A stretch of DNA of 64,000 nucleotides, from NCBI GenBank assembly GCA_964016885.1, contig OZ024741.1, positions 99,076,001-99,140,000 on the forward strand, written 5' to 3'. Position 1 is the stretch's first letter. Each line of letters opens with the position of its first letter. The position numbers were made by a program, and so were the translations under genes. The notes under the pieces were generated by a model. That model made no database searches, was not told the DNA's origin, and was given only the letters and a program-made list of their open reading frames with translations. Origin of the DNA: Eledone cirrhosa. Taxonomy: Eukaryota. Positions 3,731 through 53,510 of the stretch are shown here, in pieces.

Positions 3731-4341
3731 AATATCAAAAGAGTTTTCCATGAATAAAAAAATACGGATTCGTTATATTATTCTGTTTGTCACCACACAT
3801 GTTTACGTGTTGCAATTCCCCATGGAACGTCCATATTAAAATGATGTACAGCAATGTTAAATAGAAAAACTTAAGCTATCAGAGATTTGTCATATAAAAT
3901 GTAATAGATTAAAAATAAAATTCCATAAATAAATTTAAAAAAAAACAGTTTCGCCCGCCTGAGAGACTATATCTTCTAATGGTCGTAATATATAACTTTA
4001 CAATAACTAAAATAACTGTATAATACATAAAATAAATGGTGAAACTATCAGTAAATTAACATATAAAATACGCAATCTAGGAATAATTTCATAAATAATA
4101 CAGTTAAATAAGGACACGCTTAACTAAGTCCAGATGCTGAGATGTAAATAATTTCTCATACATATTAACAGTATATTACACAATAATTTCTCATACATAT
4201 TGTACATAAACTAAAGATGTATAAAACGTAGATCATATATACATACGAAGAACCGTCAAAACCACATTAGTTGATGTTAGATGAGATATATTCACATTTG
4301 ACATGAAATATTACAGTGACAATAATATAGTTATATTATTA

Positions 4342-4527
4342 TTGGCAGAACCGGTAGAGGGTCGGACGCCATGCTTTGCAGCATAGAGTTACGGCCCTTT
4401 ATGATCTGAGTTCAAATACCGCCGAGGTTAACTTTGCCTTTCATCCTTACGGGGTTGATAAAATAAAGTACCAGTGATGCACTGAGATAATTGCTAGCCT
4501 TGTGCCAAAAGTAGAAACAATTATTAT
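4342..4527 (+). mobile_element. Plus-strand SINE of the array unit (first copy; recurs at each period, e.g. 5632-5817)
   Basis: TTGGCAGAACCGGTAGAGGGTCGGAC...GAGTTCAAATACC...GTAGAAACAATTATT; empty site at ~26150. Confidence 0.9.
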
Positions 4528-4706
4528 TCTCTTTATCACATCATATATTTAAGTGTTGCACTTCACCATGGAACCTCTAGATTACGAATGATGTACAGCA
4601 ATGTTAAATCAAAAAAACTTAAGCTACAAGAAATTTGTCATGTAAAATTTGATGTTCGTAGATTAAAAATAACTTTCCATAAATAAATTTTTCAAAAATG
4701 CAAATT

Positions 4707-4798
4707 CGCCCACAGAGGGACTTGAACCCGCGACCCTCAGATACCTTCATAGTATATGCTATAAAAGTCTGATGCTCTACCGACTTAGCTATGCAGGC
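4707..4798 (-). tRNA. tRNA-Lys(TTT), 19-nt intron, array copy 1 (C13A D-stem mismatch)
   Basis: GCCTGCATAGCTAAGTCGGTAGAGCATCAGACTTTTA-[TAGCATATACTATGAAGGT]-ATCTGAGGGTCGCGGGTTCAAGTCCCTCTGTGGGCG; T5 terminator 8 nt downstream. Confidence 0.75.
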
Positions 4799-5208
4799 GG
4801 ACATATTTCAAGTGACAATTTTTTAGATATAATGACAAATTACTTTTCAGTGATAAATTACTTTTCAAATAAGATGGGATATCGGTTATGTATTTCGCAC
4901 TATGGAGATTTAACCTTGGTATATTTTGACTTATCCAGAGTAACTAACTGTCTGGAGTAACATCAAGTAATCAAGTTACAGAGTAACATCAAGTAATTAG
5001 TGAAACTATACTATATAGTTGACCACTGTAGAGACTACACTATTATATAAGGAACAGCATCATAAGCCAGAGAGACTAGTTCTTCTAATGGTTGTTATAT
5101 ATAACTTTACAATAACTAAAATAACTGTATATTACATAAAATAAATGGTGAAACTATCAGTAAATTAACATATAAAATACGCAATCTAGGAATAATTTCA
5201 TAAATAAT

Positions 5209-5382
5209 TGTTTCTACTTTAGGCACAAGGCCAGCAATTACCCAGTGTATTACTGGTACTTTATTTTATCGACCCCGTAAGGATGAAAGGCAAAGTCAAT
5301 CTCGGCGGGATTTGAACTCAGATCGTAAAGGGACGTAACTATGCTGGAAAGCATGGCGTCCGACCCTCTACCGATACTGCCA
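5209..5382 (-). mobile_element. Minus-strand SINE of the array unit (first copy; recurs at each period to ~24.7 kb)
   Basis: Flanked by AAATAAT direct repeats (5202-5208, 5383-5389); single AAATAAT at the empty site 4093-4099. Confidence 0.9.
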
Positions 5383-5996
5383 AAATAATACAGTTAAATA
5401 AGGACACGCTTAACTAAGTCCAGATGCTGAGATGTAAATAATTTCTCATACATATTAACAGTATATTACACAATAATTTCTCATACATATTGTACATAAA
5501 CTAAAGATGTATAAAACGTAGATCATATATACATACGAAGAACCGTCAAAACCACATTAGTTGATGTTAGATGAGATATATTCACATTTGACATGAAATA
5601 TTACAGTGACAATAATATAGTTATATTATTATTGGCAGAACCGGTAGAGGGTCGGACGCCATGCTATGCAGCATAGAGTTACGGCCCTTTATGATCTGAG
5701 TTCAAATACCGCTGAGGTTAACTTTGCCTTTCATACTTACGGGGTTGATAAAATAAAGTACCAGTAATGCACTGAGATAATTGCTAGCCTTGTGCCAAAA
5801 GTAGAAACAATTATTATTCTCTTTGTCACATCATATATTTAAGTGTTGCACTTCACCATGGAACCTCTAGATTAAGAATGGTGTACAGCAATGTTAAATC
5901 AAAAAAACTTAAGCTACAAGAAATTTGTCATGTAAAATTTGATGTTTGTAGATTAAAAATAACTTTCCATAAATAAATTTTTCAAAAATGCAAATT

Positions 5997-6088
5997 CGCC
6001 CACAGAGGGACTTGAACCCGCGACCCTCAGATACCTTCATAGTATATGCTATAAAAGTCTGATGCTCTACCGACTGAGCTATGCAGGC
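5997..6088 (-). tRNA. tRNA-Lys(TTT), 19-nt intron, array copy 2 (consensus)
   Basis: Full cloverleaf, A box TAGCTCAGTCGG, B box GGTTCAAGTCC, anticodon loop CT-TTT-A^A, oligo-T terminator. Confidence 0.88.
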
Positions 6089-7286
6089 GGACATATTTCA
6101 AGTGACAATTTTTTAGATATAATGACAAATTACTTTTCAGTGATAAATTACTTTTCAAATAAGATGGGATATCGGTTATGTATTTCGCACTATGGAGATT
6201 TAACCTTGGTATATTTTGACTTATCCAGAGTAACTAACTGTCTGGAGTAACATCAAGTAATCAAGTTACAGAGTAACATCAAGTAATTAGTGAAACTATA
6301 CTATATAGTTGACCACTGTAGAGACTACACTATTATATAAGGAACAGCATCATAAGCCAGAGAGACTAGTTCTTCTAATGGTTGTTATATATAACTTTAC
6401 AATAACTAAAATAACTGTATAATACATAAAATAAATGGTGAAACTATCAGTAAATTAACATATAAAATACGCAATCTAGGAATAATTTCATAAATAATTG
6501 TTTCTACTTTAGGCACAAGGCCAGCAATTACCCAGTGTATTACTGGTACTTTATTTTATCGACCCCGTAAGGATGAAAGGCAAAGTCAACCTCGGCGGGA
6601 TTTGAACTCAGATCGTAAAGGGACGTAACTATGCTGGAAAGCATGGCGTCCGACCCTCTACCGATACTGCCAAAATAATACAGTTAAATAAGGACACGCT
6701 TAACTAAGTCCAGATGCTGAGATGTAAATAATTTCTCATACATATTAACAGTATATTACACAATAATTTCTCATACATATTGTACATAAACTAAAGATGT
6801 ATAAAACGTAGATCATATATACATACGAAGAACCGTCAAAACCACATTAGTTGATGTTAGATGAGATATATTCACATTTGACATGAAATATTACAGTGAC
6901 AATAATATAGTTATATTATTATTGGCAGAACCGGTAGAGGGTCGGACGCCATGCTATGCAGCATAGAGTTACGGCCCTTTATGATCTGAGTTCAAATACC
7001 GCCGAGGTTAACTTTGCCTTTCATCCTTACGGGGTTGATAAAATAAAGTACCAGTAATGCACTGAGATAATTGCTAGCCTTGTGCCAAAAGTAGAAACAA
7101 TTATTATTCTCTTTGTCACATCATATATTTAAGTGTTGCACTTCACCATGGAACCTCTAGATTAAGAATGGTGTACAGCAATGTTAAATCAAAAAAACTT
7201 AAGCTACAAGAAATTTGTCATGTAAAATTTGATGTTTGTAGATTAAAAATAACTTTCCATAAATAAATTTTTCAAAAATGCAAATT

Positions 7287-7378
7287 CGCCCACAGAGGGA
7301 CTTGAACCCGCGACCCTCAGATACCTTCATAGTATATGCTATAAAAGTCTGATGCTCTACCGACTGAGCTATGCAGGC
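7287..7378 (-). tRNA. tRNA-Lys(TTT), 19-nt intron, array copy 3 (consensus)
   Basis: Identical to copy 2. Confidence 0.88.
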
Positions 7379-8576
7379 GGACATATTTCAAGTGACAATT
7401 TTTTAGATATAATGACAAATTACTTTTCAGTGATAAATTACTTTTCAAATAAGATGGGATATCGGTTATGTATTTCGCACTATGGAGATTTAACCTTGGT
7501 ATATTTTGACTTATCCAGAGTAACTAACTGTCTGGAGTAACATCAAGTAATCAAGTTACAGAGTAACATCAAGTAATTAGTGAAACTATACTATATAGTT
7601 GACCACTGTAGAGACTACACTATTATATAAGGAACAGCATCATAAGCCAGAGAGACTAGTTCTTCTAATGGTTGTTATATATAACTTTACAATAACTAAA
7701 ATAACTGTATAATACATAAAATAAATGGTGAAACTATCAGTAAATTAACATATAAAATACGCAATCTAGGAATAATTTCATAAATAATTGTTTCTACTTT
7801 AGGCACAAGGCCAGCAATTACCCAGTGTATTACTGGTACTTTATTTTATCGACCCCGTAAGGATGAAAGGCAAAGTCAATCTCGGCGGGATTTGAACTCA
7901 GATCGTAAAGGGACGTAACTATGCTGGAAAGCATGGCGTCCGACCCTCTACCGATACTGCCAAAATAATACAGTTAAATAAGGACACGCTTAACTAAGTC
8001 CAGATGCTGAGATGTAAATAATTTCTCATACATATTAACAGTATATTACACAATAATTTCTCATACATATTGTACATAAACTAAAGATGTATAAAACGTA
8101 GATCATATATACATACGAAGAACCGTCAAAACCACATTAGTTGATGTTAGATGAGATATATTCACATTTGACATGAAATATTACAGTGACAATAATATAG
8201 TTATATTATTATTGGCAGAACCGGTAGAGGGTCGGACGCCATGCTATGCAGCATAGAGTTACGGCCCTTTATGATCTGAGTTCAAATACCGCCGAGGTTA
8301 ACTTTGCCTTTCATCCTTACGGGGTTGATAAAATAAAGTACCAGTAATGCACTGAGATAATTGCTAGCCTTGTGCCAAAAGTAGAAACAATTATTATTCT
8401 CTTTGTCACATCATATATTTAAGTGTTGCACTTCACCATGGAACCTCTAGATTAAGAATGGTGTACAGCAATGTTAAATCAAAAAAACTTAAGCTACAAG
8501 AAATTTGTCATGTAAAATTTGATGTTTGTAGATTAAAAATAACTTTCCATAAATAAATTTTTCAAAAATGCAAATT

Positions 8577-8668
8577 CGCCCACAGAGGGACTTGAACCCG
8601 CGACCCTCAGATACCTTCATATTATATGCTATAAAAGTCTGATGCTCTACCGACTGAGCTATGCAGGC
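8577..8668 (-). tRNA. tRNA-Lys(TTT), 19-nt intron, array copy 4 (intron SNP only)
   Basis: Exons match consensus; intron TAGCATATAATATGAAGGT. Confidence 0.88.
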
Positions 8669-9866
8669 GGACATATTTCAAGTGACAATTTTTTAGATAT
8701 AATGACAAATTACTTTTCAGTGATAAATTACTTTTCAAATAAGATGGGATATCGGTTATGTATTTCGCACTATGGAGATTTAACCTTGGTATATTTTGAC
8801 TTATCCAGAGTAACTAACTGTCTGGAGTAACATCAAGTAATCAAGTTACAGAGTAACATCAAGTAATTAGTGAAACTATACTATATAGTTGACCACTGTA
8901 GAGACTACACTATTATATAAGGAACAGCATCATAAGCCAGAGAGACTAGTTCTTCTAATGGTTGTTATATATAACTTTGCAATAACTAAAATAACTGTAT
9001 AATACATAAAATAAATGGTGAAACTATCAGTAAATTAACATATAAAATACGCAATCTAGGAATAATTTCATAAATAATTGTTTCTACTTTAGGCACAAGG
9101 CCAGCAATTACCCAGTGTATTACTGGTACTTTATTTTATCGACCCCGTAAGGATGAAAGGCAAAGTCAATCTCGGCGGGATTTGAACTCAGATCGTAAAG
9201 GGACGTAACTATGCTGGAAAGCATGGCGTCCGACCCTCTACCGATACTGCCAAAATAATACAGTTAAATAAGGACACGCTTAACTAAGTCCAGATGCTGA
9301 GATGTAAATAATTTCTCATACATATTAACAGTATATTACACAATAATTTCTCATACATATTGTACATAAACTAAAGATGTATAAAACGTAGATCATATAT
9401 ACATACGAAGAACCGTCAAAACCACATTAGTTGATGTTAGATGAGATATATTCACATTTGACATGAAATATTACAGTGACAATAATATAGTTATATTATT
9501 ATTGGCAGAACCGGTAGAGGGTCGGACGCCATGCTATGCAGCATAGAGTTACGGCCCTTTATGATCTGAGTTCAAATACCGCCGAGGTTAACTTTGCCTT
9601 TCATCCTTACGGGGTTGATAAAATAAAGTACCAGTAATGCACTGAGATAATTGCTAGCCTTGTGCCAAAAGTAGAAACAATTATTATTCTCTTTGTCACA
9701 TCATATATTTAAGTGTTGCACTTCACCATGGAACCTCTAGATTAAGAATGGTGTACAGCAATGTTAAATCAAAAAAACTTAAGCTACAAGAAATTTGTCA
9801 TGTAAAATTTGATGTTTGTAGATTAAAAATAACTTTCCATAAATAAATTTTTCAAAAATGCAAATT

Positions 9867-9958
9867 CGCCCACAGAGGGACTTGAACCCGCGCCCCTCAG
9901 ATACCTTCATATTATATGCTATAAAAATCTGATGCTCTACCGACTGAGCTATGCAGGC
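9867..9958 (-). tRNA. tRNA-Lys(TTT), array copy 5 (C32U, U47G variant)
   Basis: Plus strand reads cgcccctcag...ataaaaatctga. Confidence 0.75.
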
Positions 9959-11156
9959 GGACATATTTCAAGTGACAATTTTTTAGATATAATGACAAAT
10001 TACTTTTCAGTGATAAATTACTTTTCAAATAAGATGGGATATCGGTTATGTATTTCGCACTATGGAGATTTAACCTTGGTATATTTTGACTTATCCAGAG
10101 TAACTAACTGTCTGGAGTAACATCAAGTAATCAAGTTACAGAGTAACATCAAGTAATTAGTGAAACTATACTATATAGTTGACCACTGTAGAGACTACAC
10201 TATTATATAAGGAACAGCATCATAAGCCAGAGAGACTAGTTCTTCTAATGGTTGTTATATATAACTTTGCAATAACTAAAATAACTGTATAATACATAAA
10301 ATAAATGGTGAAACTATCAGTAAATTAACATATAAAATACGCAATCTAGGAATAATTTCATAAATAATTGTTTCTACTTTAGGCACAAGGCCAGCAATTA
10401 CCCAGTGTATTACTGGTACTTTATTTTATCGACCCCGTAAGGATGAAAGGCAAAGTCAATCTCGGCGGGATTTGAACTCAGATCGTAAAGGGACGTAACT
10501 ATGCTGGAAAGCATGGCGTCCGACCCTCTACCGATACTGCCAAAATAATACAGTTAAATAAGGACACGCTTAACTAAGTCCAGATGCTGAGATGTAAATA
10601 ATTTCTCATACATATTAACAGTATATTACACAATAATTTCTCATACATATTGTACATAAACTAAAGATGTATAAAACGTAGATCATATATACATACGAAG
10701 AACCGTCAAAACCACATTAGTTGATGTTAGATGAGATATATTCACATTTGACATGAAATATTACAGTGACAATAATATAGTTATATTATTATTGGCAGAA
10801 CCGGTAGAGGGTCGGACGCCATGCTATGCAGCATAGAGTTACGGCCCTTTATGATCTGAGTTCAAATACCGCCGAGGTTAACTTTGCCTTTCATCCTTAC
10901 GGGGTTGATAAAATAAAGTACCAGTAATGCACTGAGATAATTGCTAGCCTTGTGCCAAAAGTAGAAACAATTATTATTCTCTTTGTCACATCATATATTT
11001 AAGTGTTGCACTTCACCATGGAACCTCTAGATTAAGAATGGTGTACAGCAATGTTAAATCAAAAAAACTTAAGCTACAAGAAATTTGTCATGTAAAATTT
11101 GATGTTTGTAGATTAAAAATAACTTTCCATAAATAAATTTTTCAAAAATGCAAATT

Positions 11157-11248
11157 CGCCCACAGAGGGACTTGAACCCGCGACCCTCAGATACCTTCAT
11201 AGTATATGCTATAAAAGTCTGATGCTCTACCGACTGAGCTATGCAGGC
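11157..11248 (-). tRNA. tRNA-Lys(TTT), array copy 6 (consensus)
   Basis: Identical to copy 2. Confidence 0.88.
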
Positions 11249-12445
11249 GGACATATTACAAGTGACAATTTTTTAGATATAATGACAAATTACTTTTCAG
11301 TGATAAATTACTTTTCAAATAAGATGGGATATCGGTTATGTATTTCGCACTATGGAGATTTAACCTTGGTATATTTTGCTTATCCAGAGTAACTAACTGT
11401 CTGGAGTAACATCAAGTAATCAAGTTACAGAGTAACATCAAGTAATTAGTGAAACTATACTATATAGTTGACCACTGTAGAGACTACACTATTATATAAG
11501 GAACAGCATCATAAGCCAGAGAGACTAGTTCTTCTAATGGTTGTTATATATAACTTTACAATAACTAAAATAACTGTATAATACATAAAATAAATGATGA
11601 AACTATCAGTAAATTAACATATAAAATACGCAATCTAGGAATAATTTCATAAATAATTGTTTCTACTTTAGGCACAAGGCCAGCAATTACCCAGTGTATT
11701 ACTGGTACTTTATTTTATCGACCCCGTAAGGATGAAAGGCAAAGTCAATCTCGGCGGGATTTGAACTCAGATCGTAAAGGGACGTAACTATGCTGGAAAG
11801 CATGGCGTCCGACCCTCTACCGATACTGCCAAAATAATACAGTTAAATAAGGACACGCTTAACTAAGTCCAGATGCTGAGATGTAAATAATTTCTCATAC
11901 ATATTAACAGTATATTACACAATAATTTCTCATACATATTGTACATAAACTAAAGATGTATAAAACGTAGATCATATATACATACGAAGAACCGTCAAAA
12001 CCACATTAGTTGATGTTAGATGAGATATATTCACATTTGACATGAAATATTACAGTGACAATAATATAGTTATATTATTATTGGCAGAACCGGTAGAGGG
12101 TCGGACGCCATGCTATGCAGCATAGAGTTACGGCCCTTTATGATCTGAGTTCAAATACCGCCGAGGTTAACTTTGCCTTTCATCCTTACGGGGTTGATAA
12201 AATAAAGTACCAGTAATGCACTGAGATAATTGCTAGCCTTGTGCCAAAAGTAGAAACAATTATTATTCTCTTTGTCACATCATATATTTAAGTGTTGCAC
12301 TTCACCATGGAACCTCTAGATTAAGAATGGTGTACAGCAATGTTAAATCAAAAAAACTTAAGCTACAAGAAATTTGTCATGTAAAATTTGATGTTTGTAG
12401 ATTAAAAATAACTTTCCATAAATAAATTTTTCAAAAATGCAAATT

Positions 12446-12537
12446 CGCCCACAGAGGGACTTGAACCCGCGCCCCTCAGATACCTTCATATTATATGCTA
12501 TAAAAATCTGATGCTCTACCGACTGAGCTATGCAGGC
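12446..12537 (-). tRNA. tRNA-Lys(TTT), array copy 7 (C32U, U47G variant)
   Basis: Same variants as copy 5. Confidence 0.75.
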
Positions 12538-13735
12538 GGACATATTTCAAGTGACAATTTTTTAGATATAATGACAAATTACTTTTCAGTGATAAATTAC
12601 TTTTCAAATAAGATGGGATATCGGTTATGTATTTCGCACTATGGAGATTTAACCTTGGTATATTTTGACTTATCCAGAGTAACTAACTGTCTGGAGTAAC
12701 ATCAAGTAATCAAGTTACAGAGTAACATCAAGTAATTAGTGAAACTATACTATATAGTTGACCACTGTAGAGACTACACTATTATATAAGGAACAGCATC
12801 ATAAGCCAGAGAGACTAGTTCTTCTAATGGTTGTTATATATAACTTTGCAATAACTAAAATAACTGTATAATACATAAAATAAATGGTGAAACTATCAGT
12901 AAATTAACATATAAAATACGCAATCTAGGAATAATTTCATAAATAATTGTTTCTACTTTAGGCACAAGGCCAGCAATTACCCAGTGTATTACTGGTACTT
13001 TATTTTATCGACCCCGTAAGGATGAAAGGCAAAGTCAATCTCGGCGGGATTTGAACTCAGATCGTAAAGGGACGTAACTATGCTGGAAAGCATGGCGTCC
13101 GACCCTCTACCGATACTGCCAAAATAATACAGTTAAATAAGGACACGCTTAACTAAGTCCAGATGCTGAGATGTAAATAATTTCTCATACATATTAACAG
13201 TATATTACACAATAATTTCTCATACATATTGTACATAAACTAAAGATGTATAAAACGTAGATCATATATACATACGAAGAACCGTCAAAACCACATTAGT
13301 TGATGTTAGATGAGATATATTCACATTTGACATGAAATATTACAGTGACAATAATATAGTTATATTATTATTGGCAGAACCGGTAGAGGGTCGGACGCCA
13401 TGCTATGCAGCATAGAGTTACGGCCCTTTATGATCTGAGTTCAAATACCGCCGAGGTTAACTTTGCCTTTCATCCTTACGGGGTTGATAAAATAAAGTAC
13501 CAGTAATGCACTGAGATAATTGCTAGCCTTGTGCCAAAAGTAGAAACAATTATTATTCTCTTTGTCACATCATATATTTAAGTGTTGCACTTCACCATGG
13601 AACCTCTAGATTAAGAATGGTGTACAGCAATGTTAAATCAAAAAAACTTAAGCTACAAGAAATTTGTCATGTAAAATTTGATGTTTGTAGATTAAAAATA
13701 ACTTTCCATAAATAAATTTTTCAAAAATGCAAATT

Positions 13736-13827
13736 CGCCCACAGAGGGACTTGAACCCGCGACCCTCAGATACCTTCATAGTATATGCTATAAAAGTCTG
13801 ATGCTCTACCGACTGAGCTATGCAGGC
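13736..13827 (-). tRNA. tRNA-Lys(TTT), array copy 8 (consensus)
   Basis: Identical to copy 2. Confidence 0.88.
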
Positions 13828-15024
13828 GGACATATTACAAGTGACAATTTTTTAGATATAATGACAAATTACTTTTCAGTGATAAATTACTTTTCAAATA
13901 AGATGGGATATCGGTTATGTATTTCGCACTATGGAGATTTAACCTTGGTATATTTTGCTTATCCAGAGTAACTAACTGTCTGGAGTAACATCAAGTAATC
14001 AAGTTACAGAGTAACATCAAGTAATTAGTGAAACTATACTATATAGTTGACCACTGTAGAGACTACACTATTATATAAGGAACAGCATCATAAGCCAGAG
14101 AGACTAGTTCTTCTAATGGTTGTTATATATAACTTTACAATAACTAAAATAACTGTATAATACATAAAATAAATGATGAAACTATCAGTAAATTAACATA
14201 TAAAATACGCAATCTAGGAATAATTTCATAAATAATTGTTTCTACTTTAGGCACAAGGCCAGCAATTACCCAGTGTATTACTGGTACTTTATTTTATCGA
14301 CCCCGTAAGGATGAAAGGCAAAGTCAATCTCGGCGGGATTTGAACTCAGATCGTAAAGGGACGTAACTATGCTGGAAAGCATGGCGTCCGACCCTCTACC
14401 GATACTGCCAAAATAATACAGTTAAATAAGGACACGCTTAACTAAGTCCAGATGCTGAGATGTAAATAATTTCTCATACATATTAACAGTATATTACACA
14501 ATAATTTCTCATACATATTGTACATAAACTAAAGATGTATAAAACGTAGATCATATATACATACGAAGAACCGTCAAAACCACATTAGTTGATGTTAGAT
14601 GAGATATATTCACATTTGACATGAAATATTACAGTGACAATAATATAGTTATATTATTATTGGCAGAACCGGTAGAGGGTCGGACGCCATGCTATGCAGC
14701 ATAGAGTTACGGCCCTTTATGATCTGAGTTCAAATACCGCCGAGGTTAACTTTGCCTTTCATCCTTACGGGGTTGATAAAATAAAGTACCAGTAATGCAC
14801 TGAGATAATTGCTAGCCTTGTGCCAAAAGTAGAAACAATTATTATTCTCTCTGTCACATCATATATTTAAGTGTTGCACTTCACCATGGAACCTCTAGAT
14901 TAAGAATGGTGTACAGCAATGTTAAATCAAAAAAACTTAAGCTACAAGAAATTTGTCATGTAAAATTTGATGTTTGTAGATTAAAAATAACTTTCCATAA
15001 ATAAATTTTTCAAAAATGCAAATT

Positions 15025-15116
15025 CGCCCACAGAGGGACTTGAACCCGCGACCCTCAGATACCTTCATAGTATATGCTATAAAAGTCTGATGCTCTACCG
15101 ACTGAGCTATGCAGGC
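15025..15116 (-). tRNA. tRNA-Lys(TTT), array copy 9 (consensus)
   Basis: Identical to copy 2. Confidence 0.88.
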
Positions 15117-16314
15117 GGACATATTTCAAGTGACAATTTTTTAGATATAATGACAAATTACTTTTCAGTGATAAATTACTTTTCAAATAAGATGGGATAT
15201 CGGTTATGTATTTCGCACTATGGAGATTTAACCTTGGTATATTTTGACTTATCCAGAGTAACTAACTGTCTGGAGTAACATCAAGTAATCAAGTTACAGA
15301 GTAACATCAAGTAATTAGTGAAACTATACTATATAGTTGACCACTGTAGAGACTACACTATTATATAAGGAACAGCATCATAAGCCAGAGAGACTAGTTC
15401 TTCTAATGGTTGTTATATATAACTTTACAATAACTAAAATAACTGTATAATACATAAAATAAATGGTGAAACTATCAGTAAATTAACATATAAAATACGC
15501 AATCTAGGAATAATTTCATAAATAATTGTTTCTACTTTAGGCACAAGGCCAGCAATTACCCAGTGTATTACTGGTACTTTATTTTATCGACCCCGTAAGG
15601 ATGAAAGGCAAAGTCAATCTCGGCGGGATTTGAACTCAGATCGTAAAGGGACGTAACTATGCTGGAAAGCATGGCGTCCGACCCTCTACCGATACTGCCA
15701 AAATAATACAGTTAAATAAGGACACGCTTAACTAAGTCCAGATGCTGAGATGTAAATAATTTCTCATACATATTAACAGTATATTACACAATAATTTCTC
15801 ATACATATTGTACATAAACTAAAGATGTATAAAACGTAGATCATATATACATACGAAGAACCGTCAAAACCACATTAGTTGATGTTAGATGAGATATATT
15901 CACATTTGACATGAAATATTACAGTGACAATAATATAGTTATATTATTATTGGCAGAACCGGTAGAGGGTCGGACGCCATGCTATGCAGCATAGAGTTAC
16001 GGCCCTTTATGATCTGAGTTCAAATACCGCCGAGGTTAACTTTGCCTTTCATCCTTACGGGGTTGATAAAATAAAGTACCAGTAATGCACTGAGATAATT
16101 GCTAGCCTTGTGCCAAAAGTAGAAACAATTATTATTCTCTTTGTCACATCATATATTTAAGTGTTGCACTTCACCATGGAACCTCTAGATTAAGAATGGT
16201 GTACAGCAATGTTAAATCAAAAAAACTTAAGCTACAAGAAATTTGTCATGTAAAATTTGATGTTTGTAGATTAAAAATAACTTTCCATAAATAAATTTTT
16301 CAAAAATGCAAATT

Positions 16315-16406
16315 CGCCCACAGAGGGACTTGAACCCGCGACCCTCAGATACCTTCATAGTATATGCTATAAAAGTCTGATACTCTACAGACTGAGGTAT
16401 GCAGGC
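16315..16406 (-). pseudogene. tRNA-Lys(TTT) array copy 10, D-arm triple mutant (G10C, G18U, C25U)
   Basis: Plus strand tactctacagactgaggtat versus consensus tgctctaccgactgagctat; A box and D stem damaged. Confidence 0.75.
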
Positions 16407-17604
16407 GGACATATTTCAAGTGACAATTTTTTAGATATAATGACAAATTACTTTTCAGTGATAAATTACTTTTCAAATAAGATGGGATATCGGTTATGTA
16501 TTTCGCACTATGGAGATTTAACCTTGGTATATTTTGACTTATCCAGAGTAACTAACTGTCTGGAGTAACATCAAGTAATCAAGTTACAGAGTAACATCAA
16601 GTAATTAGTGAAACTATACTATATAGTTGACCACTGTAGAGACTACACTATTATATAAGGAACAGCATCATAAGCCAGAGAGACTAGTTCTTCTAATGGT
16701 TGTTATATATAACTTTGCAATAACTAAAATAACTGTATAATACATAAAATAAATGGTGAAACTATCAGTAAATTAACATATAAAATACGCAATCTAGGAA
16801 TAATTTCATAAATAATTGTTTCTACTTTAGGCACAAGGCCAGCAATTACCCAGTGTATTACTGGTACTTTATTTTATCGACCCCGTAAGGATGAAAGGCA
16901 AAGTCAATCTCGGCGGGATTTGAACTCAGATCGTAAAGGGACGTAACTATGCTGGAAAGCATGGCGTCCGACCCTCTACCGATACTGCCAAAATAATACA
17001 GTTAAATAAGGACACGCTTAACTAAGTCCAGATGCTGAGATGTAAATAATTTCTCATACATATTAACAGTATATTACACAATAATTTCTCGTACGTATTG
17101 TACATAAACTAAAGATGTATAAAACGTAGATCATATATACATACGAAGAACCGTCAAAACCACATTAGTTGATGTTAGATGAGATATATTCACATTTGAC
17201 ATGAAATATTACAGTGACAATAATATAGTTATATTATTATTGGCAGAACCGGTAGAGGGTCGGACGCCATGCTATGCAGCATAGAGTTACGGCCCTTTAT
17301 GATCTGAGTTCAAATACCGCCGAGGTTAACTTTGCCTTTCATCCTTACGGGGTTGATAAAATAAAGTACCAGTAATGCACTGAGATAATTGCTAGCCTTG
17401 TGCCAAAAGTAGAAACAATTATTATTCTCTTTGTCACATCATATATTTAAGTGTTGCACTTCACCATGGAACCTCTAGATTAAGAATGGTGTACAGCAAT
17501 GTTAAATCAAAAAAACTTAAGCTACAAGAAATTTGTCATGTAAAATTTGATGTTTGTAGATTAAAAATAACTTTCCATAAATAAATTTTTCAAAAATGCA
17601 AATT

Positions 17605-17696
17605 CGCCCACAGAGGGACTTGAACCCGCGACCCTCAGATACCTTCATAGTATATGCTATAAAAGTCTGATGCTCTACCGACTGAGCTATGCAGGC
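17605..17696 (-). tRNA. tRNA-Lys(TTT), array copy 11 (consensus)
   Basis: Identical to copy 2. Confidence 0.88.
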
Positions 17697-18894
17697 GGAC
17701 ATATTTCAAGTGACAATTTTTTAGATATAATGACAAATTACTTTTCAGTGATAAATTACTTTTCAAATAAGATGGGATATCGGTTATGTATTTCGCACTA
17801 TGGAGATTTAACCTTGGTATATTTTGACTTATCCAGAGTAACTAACTGTCTGGAGTAACATCAAGTAATCAAGTTACAGAGTAACATCAAGTAATTAGTG
17901 AAACTATACTATATAGTTGACCACTGTAGAGACTACACTATTATATAAGGAACAGCATCATAAGCCAGAGAGACTAGTTCTTCTAATGGTTGTTATATAT
18001 AACTTTACAATAACTAAAATAACTGTATAATACATAAAATAAATGGTGAAACTATCAGTAAATTAACATATAAAATACGCAATCTAGGAATAATTTCATA
18101 AATAATTGTTTCTACTTTAGGCACAAGGCCAGCAATTACCCAGTGTATTACTGGTACTTTATTTTATCGACCCCGTAAGGATGAAAGGCAAAGTCAATCT
18201 CGGCGGGATTTGAACTCAGATCGTAAAGGGACGTAACTATGCTGGAAAGCATGGCGTCCGACCCTCTACCGATACTGCCAAAATAATACAGTTAAATAAG
18301 GACACGCTTAACTAAGTCCAGATGCTGAGATGTAAATAATTTCTCATACATATTAACAGTATATTACACAATAATTTCTCATACATATTGTACATAAACT
18401 AAAGATGTATAAAACGTAGATCATATATACATACGAAGAACCGTCAAAACCACATTAGTTGATGTTAGATGAGATATATTCACATTTGACATGAAATATT
18501 ACAGTGACAATAATATAGTTATATTATTATTGGCAGAACCGGTAGAGGGTCGGACGCCATGCTATGCAGCATAGAGTTACGGCCCTTTATGATCTGAGTT
18601 CAAATACCGCCGAGGTTAACTTTGCCTTTCATCCTTACGGGGTTGATAAAATAAAGTACCAGTAATGCACTGAGATAATTGCTAGCCTTGTGCCAAAAGT
18701 AGAAACAATTATTATTCTCTCTGTCACATCATATATTTAAGTGTTGCACTTCACCATGGAACCTCTAGATTAAGAATGGTGTACAGCAATGTTAAATCAA
18801 AAAAACTTAAGCTACAAGAAATTTGTCATGTAAAATTTGATGTTTGTAGATTAAAAATAACTTTCCATAAATAAATTTTTCAAAAATGCAAATT

Positions 18895-18986
18895 CGCCCA
18901 CAGAGGGACTTGAACCCGCGACCCTCAGATACCTTCATAGTATATGCTATAAAAGTCTGATACTCTACAGACTGAGGTATGCAGGC
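18895..18986 (-). pseudogene. tRNA-Lys(TTT) array copy 12, D-arm triple mutant
   Basis: Same three substitutions as copy 10. Confidence 0.75.
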
Positions 18987-20184
18987 GGACATATTTCAAG
19001 TGACAATTTTTTAGATATAATGACAAATTACTTTTCAGTGATAAATTACTTTTCAAATAAGATGGGATATCGGTTATGTATTTCGCACTATGGAGATTTA
19101 ACCTTGGTATATTTTGACTTATCCAGAGTAACTAACTGTCTGGAGTAACATCAAGTAATCAAGTTACAGAGTAACATCAAGTAATTAGTGAAACTATACT
19201 ATATAGTTGACCACTGTAGAGACTACACTATTATATAAGGAACAGCATCATAAGCCAGAGAGACTAGTTCTTCTAATGGTTGTTATATATAACTTTGCAA
19301 TAACTAAAATAACTGTATAATACATAAAATAAATGGTGAAACTATCAGTAAATTAACATATAAAATACGCAATCTAGGAATAATTTCATAAATAATTGTT
19401 TCTACTTTAGGCACAAGGCCAGCAATTACCCAGTGTATTACTGGTACTTTATTTTATCGACCCCGTAAGGATGAAAGGCAAAGTCAATCTCGGCGGGATT
19501 TGAACTCAGATCGTAAAGGGACGTAACTATGCTGGAAAGCATGGCGTCCGACCCTCTACCGATACTGCCAAAATAATACAGTTAAATAAGGACACGCTTA
19601 ACTAAGTCCAGATGCTGAGATGTAAATAATTTCTCATACATATTAACAGTATATTACACAATAATTTCTCGTACATATTGTACATAAACTAAAGATGTAT
19701 AAAACGTAGATCATATATACATACGAAGAACCGTCAAAACCACATTAGTTGATGTTAGATGAGATATATTCACATTTGACATGAAATATTACAGTGACAA
19801 TAATATAGTTATATTATTATTGGCAGAACCGGTAGAGGGTCGGACGCCATGCTATGCAGCATAGAGTTACGGCCCTTTATGATCTGAGTTCAAATACCGC
19901 CGAGGTTAACTTTGCCTTTCATCCTTACGGGGTTGATAAAATAAAGTACCAGTAATGCACTGAGATAATTGCTAGCCTTGTGCCAAAAGTAGAAACAATT
20001 ATTATTCTCTTTGTCACATCATATATTTAAGTGTTGCACTTCACCATGGAACCTCTAGATTAAGAATGGTGTACAGCAATGTTAAATCAAAAAAACTTAA
20101 GCTACAAGAAATTTGTCATGTAAAATTTGATGTTTGTAGATTAAAAATAACTTTCCATAAATAAATTTTTCAAAAATGCAAATT

Positions 20185-20276
20185 CGCCCACAGAGGGACT
20201 TGAACCCGCGACCCTCAGATACCTTCATAGTATATGCTATAAAAGTCTGATGCTCTACCGACTGAGCTATGCAGGC
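20185..20276 (-). tRNA. tRNA-Lys(TTT), array copy 13 (consensus)
   Basis: Identical to copy 2. Confidence 0.88.
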
Positions 20277-21474
20277 GGACATATTTCAAGTGACAATTTT
20301 TTAGATATAATGACAAATTACTTTTCAGTGATAAATTACTTTTCAAATAAGATGGGATATCGGTTATGTATTTCGCACTATGGAGATTTAACCTTGGTAT
20401 ATTTTGACTTATCCAGAGTAACTAACTGTCTGGAGTAACATCAAGTAATCAAGTTACAGAGTAACATCAAGTAATTAGTGAAACTATACTATATAGTTGA
20501 CCACTGTAGAGACTACACTATTATATAAGGAACAGCATCATAAGCCAGAGAGACTAGTTCTTCTAATGGTTGTTATATATAACTTTACAATAACTAAAAT
20601 AACTGTATAATACATAAAATAAATGGTGAAACTATCAGTAAATTAACATATAAAATACGCAATCTAGGAATAATTTCATAAATAATTGTTTCTACTTTAG
20701 GCACAAGGCCAGCAATTACCCAGTGTATTACTGGTACTTTATTTTATCGACCCCGTAAGGATGAAAGGCAAAGTCAATCTCGGCGGGATTTGAACTCAGA
20801 TCGTAAAGGGACGTAACTATGCTGGAAAGCATGGCGTCCGACCCTCTACCGATACTGCCAAAATAATACAGTTAAATAAGGACACGCTTAACTAAGTCCA
20901 GATGCTGAGATGTAAATAATTTCTCATACATATTAACAGTATATTACACAATAATTTCTCATACATATTGTACATAAACTAAAGATGTATAAAACGTAGA
21001 TCATATATACATACGAAGAACCGTCAAAACCACATTAGTTGATGTTAGATGAGATATATTCACATTTGACATGAAATATTACAGTGACAATAATATAGTT
21101 ATATTATTATTGGCAGAACCGGTAGAGGGTCGGACGCCATGCTATGCAGCATAGAGTTACGGCCCTTTATGATCTGAGTTCAAATACCGCCGAGGTTAAC
21201 TTTGCCTTTCATCCTTACGGGGTTGATAAAATAAAGTACCAGTAATGCACTGAGATAATTGCTAGCCTTGTGCCAAAAGTAGAAACAATTATTATTCTCT
21301 TTGTCACATCATATATTTAAGTGTTGCACTTCACCATGGAACCTCTAGATTAAGAATGGTGTACAGCAATGTTAAATCAAAAAAACTTAAGCTACAAGAA
21401 ATTTGTCATGTAAAATTTGATGTTAGTAGATTAAAAATAACTTTCCATAAATAAATTTTTCAAAAATGCAAATT

Positions 21475-21566
21475 CGCCCACAGAGGGACTTGAACCCGCG
21501 ACCCTCAGATACCTTCATAGTATATGCTATAAAAGTCTGATGCTCTACCGACTGAGCTATGCAGGC
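21475..21566 (-). tRNA. tRNA-Lys(TTT), array copy 14 (consensus)
   Basis: Identical to copy 2. Confidence 0.88.
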
Positions 21567-22764
21567 GGACATATTTCAAGTGACAATTTTTTAGATATAA
21601 TGACAAATTACTTTTCAGTGATAAATTACTTTTCAAATAAGATGGGATATCGGTTATGTATTTCGCACTATGGAGATTTAACCTTGGTATATTTTGACTT
21701 ATCCAGAGTAACTAACTGTCTGGAGTAACATCAAGTAATCAAGTTACAGAGTAACATCAAGTAATTAGTGAAACTATACTATATAGTTGACCACTGTAGA
21801 GACTACACTATTATATAAGGAACAGCATCATAAGCCAGAGAGACTAGTTCTTCTAATGGTTGTTATATATAACTTTGCAATAACTAAAATAACTGTATAA
21901 TACATAAAATAAATGGTGAAACTATCAGTAAATTAACATATAAAATACGCAATCTAGGAATAATTTCATAAATAATTGTTTCTACTTTAGGCACAAGGCC
22001 AGCAATTACCCAGTGTATTACTGGTACTTTATTTTATCGACCCCGTAAGGATGAAAGGCAAAGTCAATCTCGGCGGGATTTGAACTCAGATCGTAAAGGG
22101 ACGTAACTATGCTGGAAAGCATGGCGTCCGACCCTCTACCGATACTGCCAAAATAATACAGTTAAATAAGGACACGCTTAACTAAGTCCAGATGCTGAGA
22201 TGTAAATAATTTCTCATACATATTAACAGTATATTACACAATAATTTCTCATACATATTGTACATAAACTAAAGATGTATAAAACGTAGATCATATATAC
22301 ATACGAAGAACCGTCAAAACCACATTAGTTGATGTTAGATGAGATATATTCACATTTGACATGAAATATTACAGTGACAATAATATAGTTATATTATTAT
22401 TGGCAGAACCGGTAGAGGGTCGGACGCCATGCTATGCAGCATAGAGTTACGGCCCTTTATGATCTGAGTTCAAATACCGCCGAGGTTAACTTTGCCTTTC
22501 ATCCTTACGGGGTTGATAAAATAAAGTACCAGTAATGCACTGAGATAATTGCTAGCCTTGTGCCAAAAGTAGAAACAATTATTATTCTCTTTGTCACATC
22601 ATATATTTAAGTGTTGCACTTCACCATGGAACCTCTAGATTAAGAATGGTGTACAGCAATGTTAAATCAAAAAAACTTAAGCTACAAGAAATTTGTCATG
22701 TAAAATTTGATGTTTGTAGATTAAAAATAACTTTCCATAAATAAATTTTTCAAAAATGCAAATT

Positions 22765-22856
22765 CGCCCACAGAGGGACTTGAACCCGCGACCCTCAGAT
22801 ACCTTCATCGTATATGCTATAAAAGTCTGATGCTCTACCGACTGAGCTATGCAGGC
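22765..22856 (-). tRNA. tRNA-Lys(TTT), array copy 15 (intron SNP only)
   Basis: Exons match consensus; plus strand accttcatcgtatatgcta in the intron. Confidence 0.88.
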
Positions 22857-24054
22857 GGACATATTTCAAGAGACAATTTTTTAGATATAATGACAAATTA
22901 CTTTTCAGTGATAAATTACTTTTCAAATAAGATGGGATATCGGTTATGTATTTCGCACTATGGAGATTTAACCTTGGTATATTTTGACTTATCCAGAGTA
23001 ACTAACTGTCTGGAGTAACATCAAGTAATCAAGTTACAGAGTAACATCAAGTAATTAGTGAAACTATACTATATAGTTGACCACTGTAGAGACTACACTA
23101 TTATATAAGGAACAGCATCATAAGCCAGAGAGACTAGTTCTTCTAATGGTTGTTATATATAACTTTACAATAACTAAAATAACTGTATAATACATAAAAT
23201 AAATGGTGAAACTATCAGTAAATTAACATATAAAATACGCAATCTAGGAATAATTTCATAAATAATTGTTTCTACTTTAGGCACAAGGCCAGCAATTACC
23301 CAGTGTATTACTGGTACTTTATTTTATCGACCCCGTAAGGATGAAAGGCAAAGTCAATCTCGGCGGGATTTGAACTCAGATCGTAAAGGGACGTAACTAT
23401 GCTGGAAAGCATGGCGTCCGACCCTCTACCGATACTGCCAAAATAATACAGTTAAATAAGGACACGCTTAACTAAGTCCAGATGCTGAGATGTAAATAAT
23501 TTCTCATACATATTAACAGTATATTACACAATAATTTCTCATACATATTGTACATAAACTAAAGATGTATAAAACGTAGATCATATATACATACGAAGAA
23601 CCGTCAAAACCACATTAGTTGATGTTAGATGAGATATATTCACATTTGACATGAAATATTACAGTGACAATAATATAGTTATATTATTATTGGCAGAACC
23701 GGTAGAGGGTCGGACGCCATGCTATGCAGCATAGAGTTACGGCCCTTTATGATCTGAGTTCAAATACCGCCGAGGTTAACTTTGCCTTTCATCCTTACGG
23801 GGTTGATAAAATAAAGTACCAGTAATGCACTGAGATAATTGCTAGCCTTGTGCCAAAAGTAGAAACAATTATTATTCTCTCTGTCACATCATATATTTAA
23901 GTGTTGCACTTCACCATGGAACCTCTAGATTAAGAATGGTGTACAGCAATGTTAAATCAAAAAAACTTAAGCTACAAGAAATTTGTCATGTAAAATTTGA
24001 TGTTTGTAGATTAAAAATAACTTTCCATAAATAAATTTTTCAAAAATGCAAATT

Positions 24055-24146
24055 CGCCCACAGAGGGACTTGAACCCGCGACCCTCAGATACCTTCATAG
24101 TATATGCTATAAAAGTCTGATGCTCTACCGACTGAGCTATGCAGGC
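24055..24146 (-). tRNA. tRNA-Lys(TTT), array copy 16 (consensus)
   Basis: Identical to copy 2. Confidence 0.88.
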
Positions 24147-25344
24147 GGACATATTTCAAGTGACAATTTTTTAGATATAATGACAAATTACTTTTCAGTG
24201 ATAAATTACTTTTCAAATAAGATGGGATATCGGTTATGTATTTCGCACTATGGAGATTTAACCTTGGTATATTTTGACTTATCCAGAGTAACTAACTGTC
24301 TGGAGTAACATCAAGTAATCAAGTTACAGAGTAACATCAAGTAATTAGTGAAACTATACTATATAGTTGACCACTGTAGAGACTACACTATTATATAAGG
24401 AACAGCATCATAAGCCAGAGAGACTAGTTCTTCTAATGGTTGTTATATATAACTTTACAATAACTAAAATAACTGTATAATACATAAAATAAATGGTGAA
24501 ACTATCAGTAAATTAACATATAAAATACGCAATCTAGGAATAATTTCATAAATAATTGTTTCTACTTTAGGCACAAGGCCAGCAATTACCCAGTGTATTA
24601 CTGGTACTTTATTTTATCGACACCGTAAGGATGAAAGGCAAAGTCAACCTCGGCGGGATTTGAACTCAGATCGTAAAGGGACGTAACTATGCTGGAAAGC
24701 ATGGCGTCCGACCCTCTACCGATACTGCCAAAATAATACAGTTAAATAAGGACACGCTTAACTAAGTCCAGATGCTGAGATGTAAATAATTTCTCATACA
24801 TATTAACAGTATATTACACAATAATTTCTCATACATATTGTACATAAACTAAAGATGTATAAAACGTAGATCATATATACATACGAAGAACCGTCAAAAC
24901 CACATTAGTTGATGTTAGATGAGATATATTCACATTTGACATGAAATATTACAGTGACAATAATATAGTTATATTATTATTGGCAGAACCGGTAGAGGGT
25001 CGGACGCCATGCTATGCAGCATAGAGTTACGGCCCTTTATGATCTGAGTTCAAATACCGCCGAGGTTAACTTTGCCTTTCATCCTTACGGGGTTGATAAA
25101 ATAAAGTACCAGTAATGCACTGAGATAATTGCTAGCCTTGTGCCAAAAGTAGAAACAATTATTATTCTCTTTGTCACATCATATATTTAAGTGTTGCACT
25201 TCACCATGGAACCTCTAGATTAAGAATGGTGTACAGCAATGTTAAATCAAAAAAACTTAAGCTACAAGAAATTTGTCATGTAAAATTTGATGTTTGTAGA
25301 TTAAAAATAACTTTCCATAAATAAATTTTTCAAAAATGCGAATT

Positions 25345-25436
25345 CGCCCACAGAGGGACTTGAACCCGCGACCCTCAGATACCTTCATAGTATATGCTAT
25401 AAAAGTCTGATACTCTACAGACTGAGGTATGCAGGC
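25345..25436 (-). pseudogene. tRNA-Lys(TTT) array copy 17, D-arm triple mutant
   Basis: Same three substitutions as copies 10 and 12. Confidence 0.75.
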
Positions 25437-26397
25437 GGACATATTTCAAGTGACAATTTTTTAGATATAATGACAAATTACTTTTCAGTGATAAATTACT
25501 TTTCAAATAAGATGGGATATCGGTTATGTATTTCGCACTATGGAGATTTAACCTTGGTATATTTTGACTTATCCAGAGTAACTAACTGTCTGGAGTAACA
25601 TCAAGTAATCAAGTTACAGAGTAACATCAAGTAATTAGTGAAACTATACTATATAGTTGACCACTGTAGAGACTACACTATTATATAAGGAACAGCATCA
25701 TAAGCCAGAGAGACTAGTTCTTCTAATGGTTGTTATATATAACTTTACAATAACTAAAATAACTGTATAATACATAAAATAAATGGTGAAACTATCAGTA
25801 AATTAACATAAAAATACGCAATCTAGGAATAATTTCATAAATAATAGTTAAATAAGGACACGCTTAACTAAGTCCAGATGCTGAGATGTAAATAATTTCT
25901 CATACATATTGACAATATGTTAGACAATAATTTCTCATACATATTAACAGTATATTACACAACAATTTCTCATACATATTGTACATAAACTAATGTATAA
26001 AATATTGTACATAAACTAATGTATAAACTAATGTATAAAATGTAGATCATATATACATACGAAGAACCGTCAAAACCACATTAGTTGATGTTAGATGAGA
26101 TATATTCACATTTGACATGAAATATTACAGTGACAATAATATAGTTATAATATTATTCTCTTTGTCACAACATATATTTAAGTGTTGTACTTGAACATGG
26201 AACGTCCAAAGTAAAAATGATGTGCAATAATGTTCAATAAAAACTTAAGCTACCAACAACGTAACGTGTAAAATATGATTTTAATAGATTACAAATAACT
26301 GTCCAAAATATTTTTCCTTAAATAAGAAATCTTATAATGTAATATATTTGTCATGAACTCACGGGCTCTTAGAAAGATGGTGAAAAGAAAACAGATT

Positions 26398-26489
26398 CGC
26401 TCGCAGAGGCACTTGAACCCGCGACCCTCAGATACTTTCACAGTACATGCTATAAAAGTCTGATGCTCTACCGACTGAGCTACGCGGGC
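26398..26489 (-). pseudogene. Intron-containing tRNA-Lys(TTT), probable pseudogene
   Basis: C61G in the B box/T stem, G70A in the acceptor stem; intron ends AAAGT (G at -3 lost). Confidence 0.75.
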
Positions 26490-26873
26490 GGACACATCCT
26501 GGGACAGTTGTTCAGATAAGATGACAAATTACTTTTCAGTGACAAATTACTTTCAGCCACGTATTTCGCACTATGGAGATTAAACTTTAGTGTATTTTGA
26601 CTTATCCTGTGTAATTTCATGTAACTGCATGTCTACAGTAACATCAAGTAATCAAGTTACAGAGTAACATCAAGTAATTAGAGAAACTATACTATATAGT
26701 TCACCATTGTAGAGACTCTACACTATTAGATAAGGAACAGCTTCATAAGCCAGAGAGACTAGGCATTGTAATGCTCGTTATATATAACTTTACAATAACT
26801 AAAATAACTCTATAATACTTTAAGCAAATGGTTAAACTATCAGTAAATTAGCATATAAAATACGTATTTTTAG

Positions 26874-30070: not shown

Positions 30071-30086
30071 TATATAGTTAAATAAC

Positions 30087-50139: not shown

Positions 50140-53510
<3,371 letters not shown>

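What the first reader, a model, noticed from the sequence alone, without database searches (positions are those of the whole stretch)
3961..26160. Young 17-copy tandem amplification of an intron-containing tRNA-Lys(UUU) gene
Seen: 1290-bp units differ by only a handful of SNPs. Each has one tRNA-Lys(TTT) with A/B boxes and a T5 terminator; 11 of 17 have consensus exons. The array lies inside an older cluster of 10 or more diverged paralogues and relics. Inference: recent single-isodecoder dosage amplification (birth-and-death plus concerted evolution). It could relate to AAA-codon demand in an AT-rich genome, to tissue- or oocyte-specific tDNA, or to a chromatin role. It is likely to vary in copy number between individuals.
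Basis: partly seen in the sequence, partly recalled or inferred. Interest (0 to 1): 0.75.

Follow-up and report, generated by a model that had tools for sequence, protein, structure and literature searches.

The report
Young lysine tRNA gene tandem array
This is a run of 17 near-identical lysine tRNA genes, 6 of them already mutated, in an animal genome that also arrays other tRNA genes; it likely grew by ordinary unequal crossing-over, and its excess of mutations right at the genes suggests that the copies are transcribed.

Summary
Observation confirmed. There are 17 minus-strand tRNA-Lys(UUU) genes with a 19-nt intron, in 16 units of 1289-1290 bp plus a 1109-bp edge unit. Units differ by 0.38% on average, and 11 of 17 genes have consensus exons. 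The array is the newest of many duplications in an 89-kb Lys(UUU) cluster (65 gene or relic hits). Dimer periodicity and recombinant units point to unequal crossing-over. A copy with a broken A box has spread to 3 units, so no per-copy purifying selection is visible. AAA-codon dosage is not supported: the genome has 61 Lys(UUU) and 53 Lys(CUU) exact half-gene matches, and Lys(CUU) and Met have their own arrays. The intron is the norm here (76 of 76 near-intact genes), and a 1995 paper title reports it in molluscs. The array's tRNA has two acceptor-stem wobble pairs made by recurrent CpG decay. One useful extra: variable sites are about 10-fold denser in the intron and inner flanks than in the spacer (5/49 vs 12/1168), as expected from transcription-associated mutagenesis. 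Expression itself is untested. The scan has noted Met, Val, Pro and Thr arrays on other DNA of this genome. Verdict: ordinary, a new member of a known kind.

The parts
3961..5069 (.). Left edge unit (1109 bp); lacks SINE-A; left part 10 differences in 746 bp from the array consensus, part upstream of the gene 0 in 271 bp
5070..25707 (.). 16 full units of 1289-1290 bp, 22 variable columns, mean pairwise difference 0.38%, dimer substructure
25708..26160 (.). Partial right edge unit; empty sites for both SINEs; no tRNA gene
4707..4798 (-). tRNA-Lys(UUU) copy 1, C13A (breaks D-stem pair 13-22)
5997..6088 (-). tRNA-Lys(UUU) copy 2, consensus exons; example gene: exon 1 37 nt, 19-nt intron after position 37, exon 2 36 nt; U4.G69 and G5.U68 wobbles, C50.U64 mismatch. 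Other consensus copies: 7287, 8577, 11157, 13736, 15025, 17605, 20185, 21475, 22765, 24055 (left ends)
9867..9958 (-). Variant copy C32U + U47G (same variant at 12446-12537); cloverleaf intact, intron pair at 32 becomes U.G
16315..16406 (-). Damaged copy G10C + G18U + C25U, A box broken (same haplotype at 18895-18986 and 25345-25436); likely pseudogene
5984..5988 (-). T5 run, +9 to +13 after the gene, present in 17 of 17 units (example unit); predicted Pol III terminator
5205..5382 (-). SINE-A (example unit), present in the 16 full units; empty site in both edge units, short AT-rich target duplication; subfamily has 33,881 exact 30-mer matches in the genome
5633..5811 (+). SINE-B (example unit), same family in the opposite orientation, present in 17 units, absent from the right partial unit
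1096..1187 (+). Older Lys(UUU) paralogue with 4 exon changes
3097..3188 (-). Decayed Lys(UUU) relic
26398..34186 (-). Ten older paralogues and relics (5' ends at 26489, 26949, 27328, 29377, 30533, 31352, 31812, 32192, 33779, 34186); 26105-27650 and 30968-32546 are a 95.8% identical duplication

Best explanation
This is a 22-kb head-to-tail array of 17 intron-containing tRNA-Lys(UUU) genes, the newest duplication in an 89-kb Lys(UUU) cluster, that likely grew by selectively near-neutral unequal crossing-over and is likely still transcribed by RNA polymerase III. Steps: (1) shown: the cluster holds duplications of all ages, from about 70% to 99.5% identity; (2) shown: a unit gained a young SINE that both edge units lack; inferred: that unit then expanded by unequal exchange, partly as two-unit blocks; (3) shown: gene, promoter boxes, T5 run and splice geometry are intact in 11 units; inferred: these give a chargeable tRNA-Lys with a weaker acceptor stem; (4) shown: variable sites concentrate at the gene; inferred: transcription-associated mutagenesis in the germ line; (5) shown: damaged copies spread too; inferred: about 30 other good copies make each unit dispensable, so the array is decaying by birth-and-death.
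For: Lag-2 units are closer than chance (3.6 vs 4.9 differences, permutation P=0.0016; lag 1 P=0.64), and 13 site pairs among 13 informative sites fail the four-gamete test. Edge units are more diverged than the core. Nested duplications fill the cluster. The broken-A-box haplotype sits in 3 of 17 units, and exon variation (5/73) is above spacer level (12/1168), not below it. Intron plus inner flanks, with boundaries taken from PMC6130373 (passages seen): 5/49 vs 12/1168, ratio 9.9, Fisher P=4e-4; the paper gives 7-10-fold and a peak 10-15 nt upstream, and the two 5' changes lie 10 and 15 nt upstream. The excess repeats in two Met sub-arrays (4/52 vs 14/718, P=0.03; 9/52 vs 7/698, P=1.5e-7) and in the Lys(CUU) array (14/30 vs 195/705, P=0.02). 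Other tRNA types are arrayed in the same genome: 25 Met genes in 30 kb; Lys(CUU) 26 and 41 copies; five Lys(UUU) copies, four beside an Ile(UAU)-like gene, on C1. 31 non-array genes have exons that differ from the array's only at positions 4 or 68.
Against: Transcription is inferred, not measured. The mutation excess was not significant in the pooled older duplicates (six families, 15/294 vs 81/2487, P=0.076). The near-gene changes are mostly transversions (7 of 10), whereas PMC6130373 reports C>T and G>A as the commonest classes. I noticed the excess before I chose the test, and three D-arm changes may be one event (collapsed count 7/122 vs 12/1168, P=0.001). Neutrality rests on few sites; weak selection on total dosage is not excluded.
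Confidence: 0.72

Rival explanations
1. Adaptive dosage or stage-specific tDNA: the array was selected to supply more Lys(UUU), or this wobble-stem isodecoder, in oocytes or another tissue.
For: The array holds 11 of the 16 genes with U4.G69/G5.U68 and 11 of 42 genes with otherwise standard exons. In Drosophila a young Lys-TTT duplicate is ovary-biased as precursor and has a selection signal (PMC12704002, passages seen).
Against: UUU and CUU counts are similar with or without the array (61 or 50 vs 53). Arrays exist for other anticodons. 6 of 17 copies carry exon changes and a damaged haplotype spread. Both stem changes are CpG-to-TpG transitions and recur on unrelated intron backgrounds; the array's nearest relatives have the Watson-Crick stem.
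Confidence: 0.12
2. Silent tRNA-containing minisatellite: the unit is amplified as repeat DNA and is not transcribed; the wobble stem marks a dying gene.
For: No purifying selection on exons. The cloverleaf is 4.8 kcal/mol weaker than the Watson-Crick type (-21.8 vs -26.6). Each unit carries two SINEs. No dispersed exact copy of the array's gene turned up among the 40 best of 123 candidates.
Against: The mutation excess is confined to the gene and its inner flanks, with 0/50 in the outer flanks. Promoter boxes, T5 run and the C32-intron pair are intact in most units. The same mature sequence occurs in five other genes with four different introns. Human LysRS reads mainly the anticodon and accepts the acceptor minihelix without sequence specificity (PMC9976931, passages seen).
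Confidence: 0.12
3. Assembly artefact: few real copies were expanded by the assembler.
For: Units are nearly identical, and two are fully identical. The only well-covering run may be the assembled sample.
Against: 13 of 22 variable sites are shared by 2-6 units in nested, periodic patterns, and 21 of 22 are substitutions. Contigs across the internal SINE junctions have depth 236-258, like the rest of the spacer, while the shallowest listed contigs have 9-24.
Confidence: 0.03

Closest known systems
Mollusc intron-containing tRNA-Lys(UUU) genes (Matsuo, Abe, Saruta et al. 1995, Gene 165:249-253; only the title seen, as reference 78 of bioRxiv 10.64898/2026.09.27.754811)
   Same: Same anticodon with an intron. 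From recall, not from a call: that paper covered squid and octopus, found no intron in Lys(CUU), and saw tandem 2.1-kb units with a gene and a pseudogene in squid. Here Lys(CUU) genes also lack introns.
   Different: Here the unit is 1.29 kb with one gene and two SINEs, and the array is fully assembled, so its variants can be read.
Human 1q23.3 tDNA VNTR (PMC4041453; abstract and outline seen)
   Same: Tandem units with tRNA genes, similar copy range (9-43 units per allele).
   Different: The human unit is 7.3 kb, GC-rich, holds several tRNAs, binds CTCF and is conserved in mouse. This unit is 1.29 kb, 33% GC, holds one gene, and is very young; variation between individuals is untested.
Arabidopsis chromosome 1 array of 81 tRNA genes in 27 units (PMC2886086; search listing and start of abstract seen)
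   Same: Local tandem duplication of tRNA gene units.
   Different: Three genes per unit there; one here.
Transcription-associated mutagenesis at tRNA loci (PMC6130373, passages seen; PMC13010820, abstract seen)
   Same: About 10-fold excess of variation in intron and inner flanks, with 5' changes 10-15 nt upstream.
   Different: Read here from paralogous units of one haplotype, not from populations; exons are not purged; spectrum is transversion-rich.

Membership tests
Eukaryotic nuclear tRNA-Lys(UUU) gene | Cloverleaf with UUU anticodon scoring above the Rfam tRNA threshold | tested here: met
   17 of 17 above 29 bits (43.7-54.8). Consensus copy: all stems pair except C50.U64, a mismatch shared with the genome's other Lys(UUU) genes.
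Eukaryotic nuclear tRNA-Lys(UUU) gene | Internal A and B boxes and a downstream T-run | tested here: met
   A box consensus in 14 of 17, B box identical in 17 of 17, T5 at +9 in 17 of 17; consensus patterns recalled.
Eukaryotic nuclear tRNA-Lys(UUU) gene | Transcribed, spliced and charged with lysine | not testable with these tools
   Only indirect: mutation excess at the gene.
Canonical eukaryotic tRNA intron | Position 37/38, with base 32 pairing to the third-last intron base | tested here: met
   19-nt intron after A37; C32 and intron G(-3) in 15 of 17, U32.G in 2 of 17; the precursor folds with an extended anticodon-intron helix. Rule recalled.
Tandem tDNA array under unequal crossing-over | Head-to-tail units, homogenised core, diverged edges, recombinant units | tested here: met
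tDNA VNTR (as human 1q23.3) | Unit number varies between alleles | not testable with these tools
   Two RAD-seq runs of other samples show only 0-9 reads on the spacer; no copy number can be read.
Birth-and-death multigene family | Intact genes, pseudogenes and relics of graded age in one cluster | tested here: met
   65 hits from intact to half-gene relics; duplications of about 70-99.5% identity.
Oocyte- or tissue-specific tDNA | Expression restricted to one tissue or stage | not testable with these tools
   No expression data could be examined.
Alanine-mischargeable tRNA (G3.U70 or G4.U69) | G3.U70 or G4.U69 wobble in the acceptor stem | tested here: not met
   The array's wobbles are U4.G69 (reverse orientation) and G5.U68; G4.U69 as the mischarging pair from PMC9976931.

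The most novel reading that the evidence does not exclude
The array is a germ-line- or stage-specific amplification of a distinct, loosened-stem Lys(UUU) isodecoder (U4.G69, G5.U68) that has arisen several times and has its own role, such as faster turnover or a source of tRNA fragments. Separately, young tRNA arrays would record germ-line Pol III activity as a mutation footprint readable from a single assembled genome.
Probability: 0.1. Interest if true: 0.55.

Novelty: new member of a known kind. Interest (0 to 1): 0.24.

Why it matters
As a locus it matters little: tandem tRNA arrays and intron-bearing mollusc Lys(UUU) genes are known, and this genome has several such arrays. Its value is as a clean natural mutation-accumulation series. 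Seventeen units of equal age show a roughly 10-fold mutation excess at the tRNA gene with no purging. If this holds, one long-read assembly can indicate which tRNA arrays are transcribed in the germ line, and how fast redundant tRNA genes decay, in animals that have no Pol III data.

Tried and rejected
AAA-codon dosage: rejected on gene counts; codon usage itself was not measured. Intron as a special feature of the array: rejected, 76 of 76 near-intact genes have one; the single intronless copy found is decayed. C50.U64 mismatch as a sign of decay: rejected, it is the genome's standard, and some distant genes have U50.C64. Alanine mischarging: wrong wobble orientation. SINE-A copied from the 98%-identical SINE at 30.08-30.27 kb: not needed, the subfamily has 33,881 exact matches and the insertion sites differ. 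Gene conversion from cluster paralogues as the source of exon variants: single alleles match (C25U and U47G in the gene at 31352, C32U in one upstream gene), but the linked paralogue intron differences are absent (judged by eye); not excluded. Replication of the mutation excess in older duplicates: not significant when pooled; the C1 Lys family alone showed it. My first Lys(CUU) motif matched only one decayed gene, so the count was redone with a motif from the fetched genes. Reads were laid on spacer only, so exon variants are not read-checked. The default tRNA tool found 2 genes because it ignores introns. The Matsuo 1995 paper is not held under the id I tried. The protein atlas gave no answer. 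A search for cephalopod tRNA gene clusters found 0 papers, and one for octopus, tRNA genes, intron and tRNA-Lys found 1 unrelated paper, so I found no description of this array in the held library; bioRxiv supplements, which list squid and Aplysia tRNA-Lys sequences, were not seen. No absolute age is given: I have no measured mutation rate.
Full report
Observation. The window holds 17 tRNA genes on the minus strand at a spacing of 1289-1290 bp, from 4707 to 25436. Rfam scores all 17 above threshold, and intron-aware ARAGORN places a 19-nt intron next to a TTT anticodon. Sixteen units are full length. The left edge unit (3961-5069) is 1109 bp, and a gene-less partial unit ends near 26160. The 16 full units have 22 variable columns and differ on average at 4.9 sites (0.38%). 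Eleven genes have consensus exons. One has C13A, two have C32U plus U47G, and three have G10C plus G18U plus C25U, which breaks the A box and a D-stem pair. All 17 have the same B box and a T5 run at +9.

Is it real? Thirteen of the 22 variable sites are shared by 2-6 units in nested patterns, and 21 are substitutions, which is not how consensus errors look. Logan contigs of run X1 cover the spacer without a difference at depth 236-258, including both junctions of SINE-A, which exists only in internal units; the shallowest listed contigs have depth 9-24. X1 may be the assembled sample, and this depth is no copy number. Two RAD-seq runs of other samples show a few reads on the spacer. The gene itself was not covered by laid reads.

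Setting. The window is G000:C2:99,076,001-99,140,000 of a 3.0-Gb genome. I infer a mollusc, likely an octopod: the Lys(UUU) intron fits, and I recall the SINE as an octopus type; no call named the organism. In 204 kb of contiguous sequence the gene hits 65 places, all within 89 kb (99,021,373-99,110,186); 17 are the array. The cluster holds duplications from about 70% to 99.5% identity, including a 4.75-kb block repeated about three times upstream and a 1.55-kb segment repeated at 26.1 and 31.0 kb. The genome has 61 exact matches to a 33-mer of the first exon and 58 to a 26-mer of the second. Of 76 near-intact genes read, 76 have introns of 16-24 nt; one decayed intronless copy and several half genes were left out of that count. 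Sixteen genes have a fully Watson-Crick acceptor stem, 7 have U68, 3 have U4, and 16 have both, 11 of them in the array.

How it grew. Both edge units have an empty site for SINE-A, and the right one also for SINE-B. The left edge unit differs from the consensus at 10 of 746 sites on its outer side and at 0 of 271 on its inner side. So an older local duplication came first, one copy took up a SINE of a very abundant subfamily (33,881 exact 30-mer matches), and that copy expanded (order inferred). Units two apart are closer than chance (P=0.0016) while neighbours are not (P=0.64), and 13 site pairs show all four gametes. This fits repeated unequal exchange, partly in two-unit blocks. The A-box-broken haplotype was copied into three units.

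The tRNA. It differs from the Watson-Crick type by C4U and C68U, both CpG-to-TpG changes, giving U4.G69 and G5.U68 and a cloverleaf 4.8 kcal/mol weaker. The same mature sequence occurs in five genes outside the array with four different introns. In a tree of 26 cluster genes built on flanks and introns, the array's closest relatives have C4 and C68 (100/99 support), and U4/U68 genes fall in separate places. C4U also recurs in 4 of 26 Lys(CUU) array copies. So it is likely a tolerated mutational hotspot, not a designed isodecoder. Lysine identity rests mainly on the anticodon, and the alanine-mischarging pair is G4.U69, not U4.G69 (PMC9976931, passages seen). The C50.U64 mismatch is standard in this genome. 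The intron sits at 37/38 with C32 opposite the third-last intron base. Surveys of animal tRNA introns name Tyr, Ile(UAU), Leu(CAA) and Arg(UCU) (PMC12168002, passages seen), but the mollusc Lys(UUU) intron was published in 1995 (title seen; content recalled).

Sign of activity. Variable sites cluster at the gene: exon 5/73, intron 2/19, inner 5' flank 2/20, inner 3' flank 1/10, outer flanks 0/50, against 12/1168 for all sequence outside the gene and inner flanks. Intron plus inner flanks give a 9.9-fold excess (P=4e-4), close to the 7-10-fold reported for active tRNA loci, whose 5' peak lies 10-15 nt upstream (PMC6130373, passages seen); the two 5' changes here lie at 10 and 15 nt. The excess repeats in both Met sub-arrays and in the Lys(CUU) array. 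It does not reach significance in six pooled families of older duplicates (P=0.076), the spectrum is transversion-rich (7 of 10), and the test followed the observation. Exons vary about as much as the neutral parts of the transcript, so no purging is visible. Seven dispersed, intron-retaining copies match genes of the upstream part of this cluster or of C1 only from about 5 nt before to 6-12 nt after the gene, mostly followed by TA repeats. They look like retroposed precursors and so suggest germ-line transcription of sister genes; none found comes from the array.

Codon demand. Lys(CUU) has 53 exact matches to the equivalent 33-mer, with a 26-copy array of about 1.9-kb period and a 41-copy cluster on C4. 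Arraying tRNA genes by type is a habit of this genome, and the UUU:CUU ratio is 1.15 with the array and 0.94 without its 11 exact copies. These are exact-match counts and include pseudogenes and retrocopies.

Verdict. A real, young tandem tDNA array of a known kind, best explained by near-neutral unequal crossing-over in a birth-and-death cluster, with copies likely transcribed (0.72). Rivals: adaptive or stage-specific dosage (0.12), silent satellite (0.12), artefact (0.03). Two literature searches found no description of this array. Interest 0.24.

Noticed in passing
G000:C4:161860245, C1:192115379, C1:264329474, C1:278670099, C14:8049841, C3:113910624, C1:299701662 (L013, L025, L027, L028, L035, L068, L030): Dispersed Lys(UUU) copies that keep the intron and match a clustered source gene only from about -5 to +6..+12, mostly followed by TA repeats: likely retroposed unspliced precursors. 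Two of them (C4 and C1:192 Mb) share about 22 nt of upstream sequence, perhaps from the mobilising element.
   Followed up: partly
G000:C1:206,117,000-206,129,000 (L026, L015): Second tandem array with about 2-kb units: five Lys(UUU) genes, four of them beside an Ile(UAU)-like gene with a 27-nt intron (my reading; ARAGORN mislabels it Ser or Tyr), 92-96% identity. It shows conserved exons with variable inner flank and intron.
   Followed up: partly
G000:C4:128.68-128.73 Mb and C4:79.56-79.62 Mb (L053-L066): Intronless Lys(CUU) arrays: 26 copies at about 1.9-kb period and a 41-copy cluster with many mutated copies.
   Followed up: partly
G000:C2:102,060,001-102,090,000 (L044-L046): tRNA-Met(CAU) array, 25 genes in 30 kb, 2.4-kb two-gene units, each gene with a 22-nt intron; noted before by this scan.
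   Followed up: partly
all Lys(UUU) genes read: Position 50:64 of the T stem is a pyrimidine mismatch: C.U in most genes and U.C in three dispersed ones, so the mismatch itself may be conserved.
   Followed up: no
window 37,300-40,000, minus strand: Frameshifted retroelement with a reverse transcriptase domain (Pfam RVT_1, E=8e-20); LINE-like by recalled motifs.
   Followed up: partly
window 50,208-53,043: An 870-bp (ACC)n tract followed by a 1.8-kb (TGG)n tract with a higher-order unit: long trinucleotide repeats in inverted orientation, 150 bp apart.
   Followed up: no
window 3,940-3,960: Just left of the array, the last few bases and T-run of another Lys(UUU) gene remain, the rest apparently deleted at the array's left boundary (read by eye).
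   Followed up: no
20 nt upstream of array genes and of Lys(CUU) genes on C4:79.6 Mb: Both gene families have a TTGTCAC motif at about -20 to -14; possibly a shared upstream promoter element.
   Followed up: no
window 6,188-6,226: A contig of another organism's run (X4) lays on this short stretch 100-140 nt upstream of the gene, and a similar motif is visible upstream of cluster paralogues; may be a conserved upstream block.
   Followed up: no
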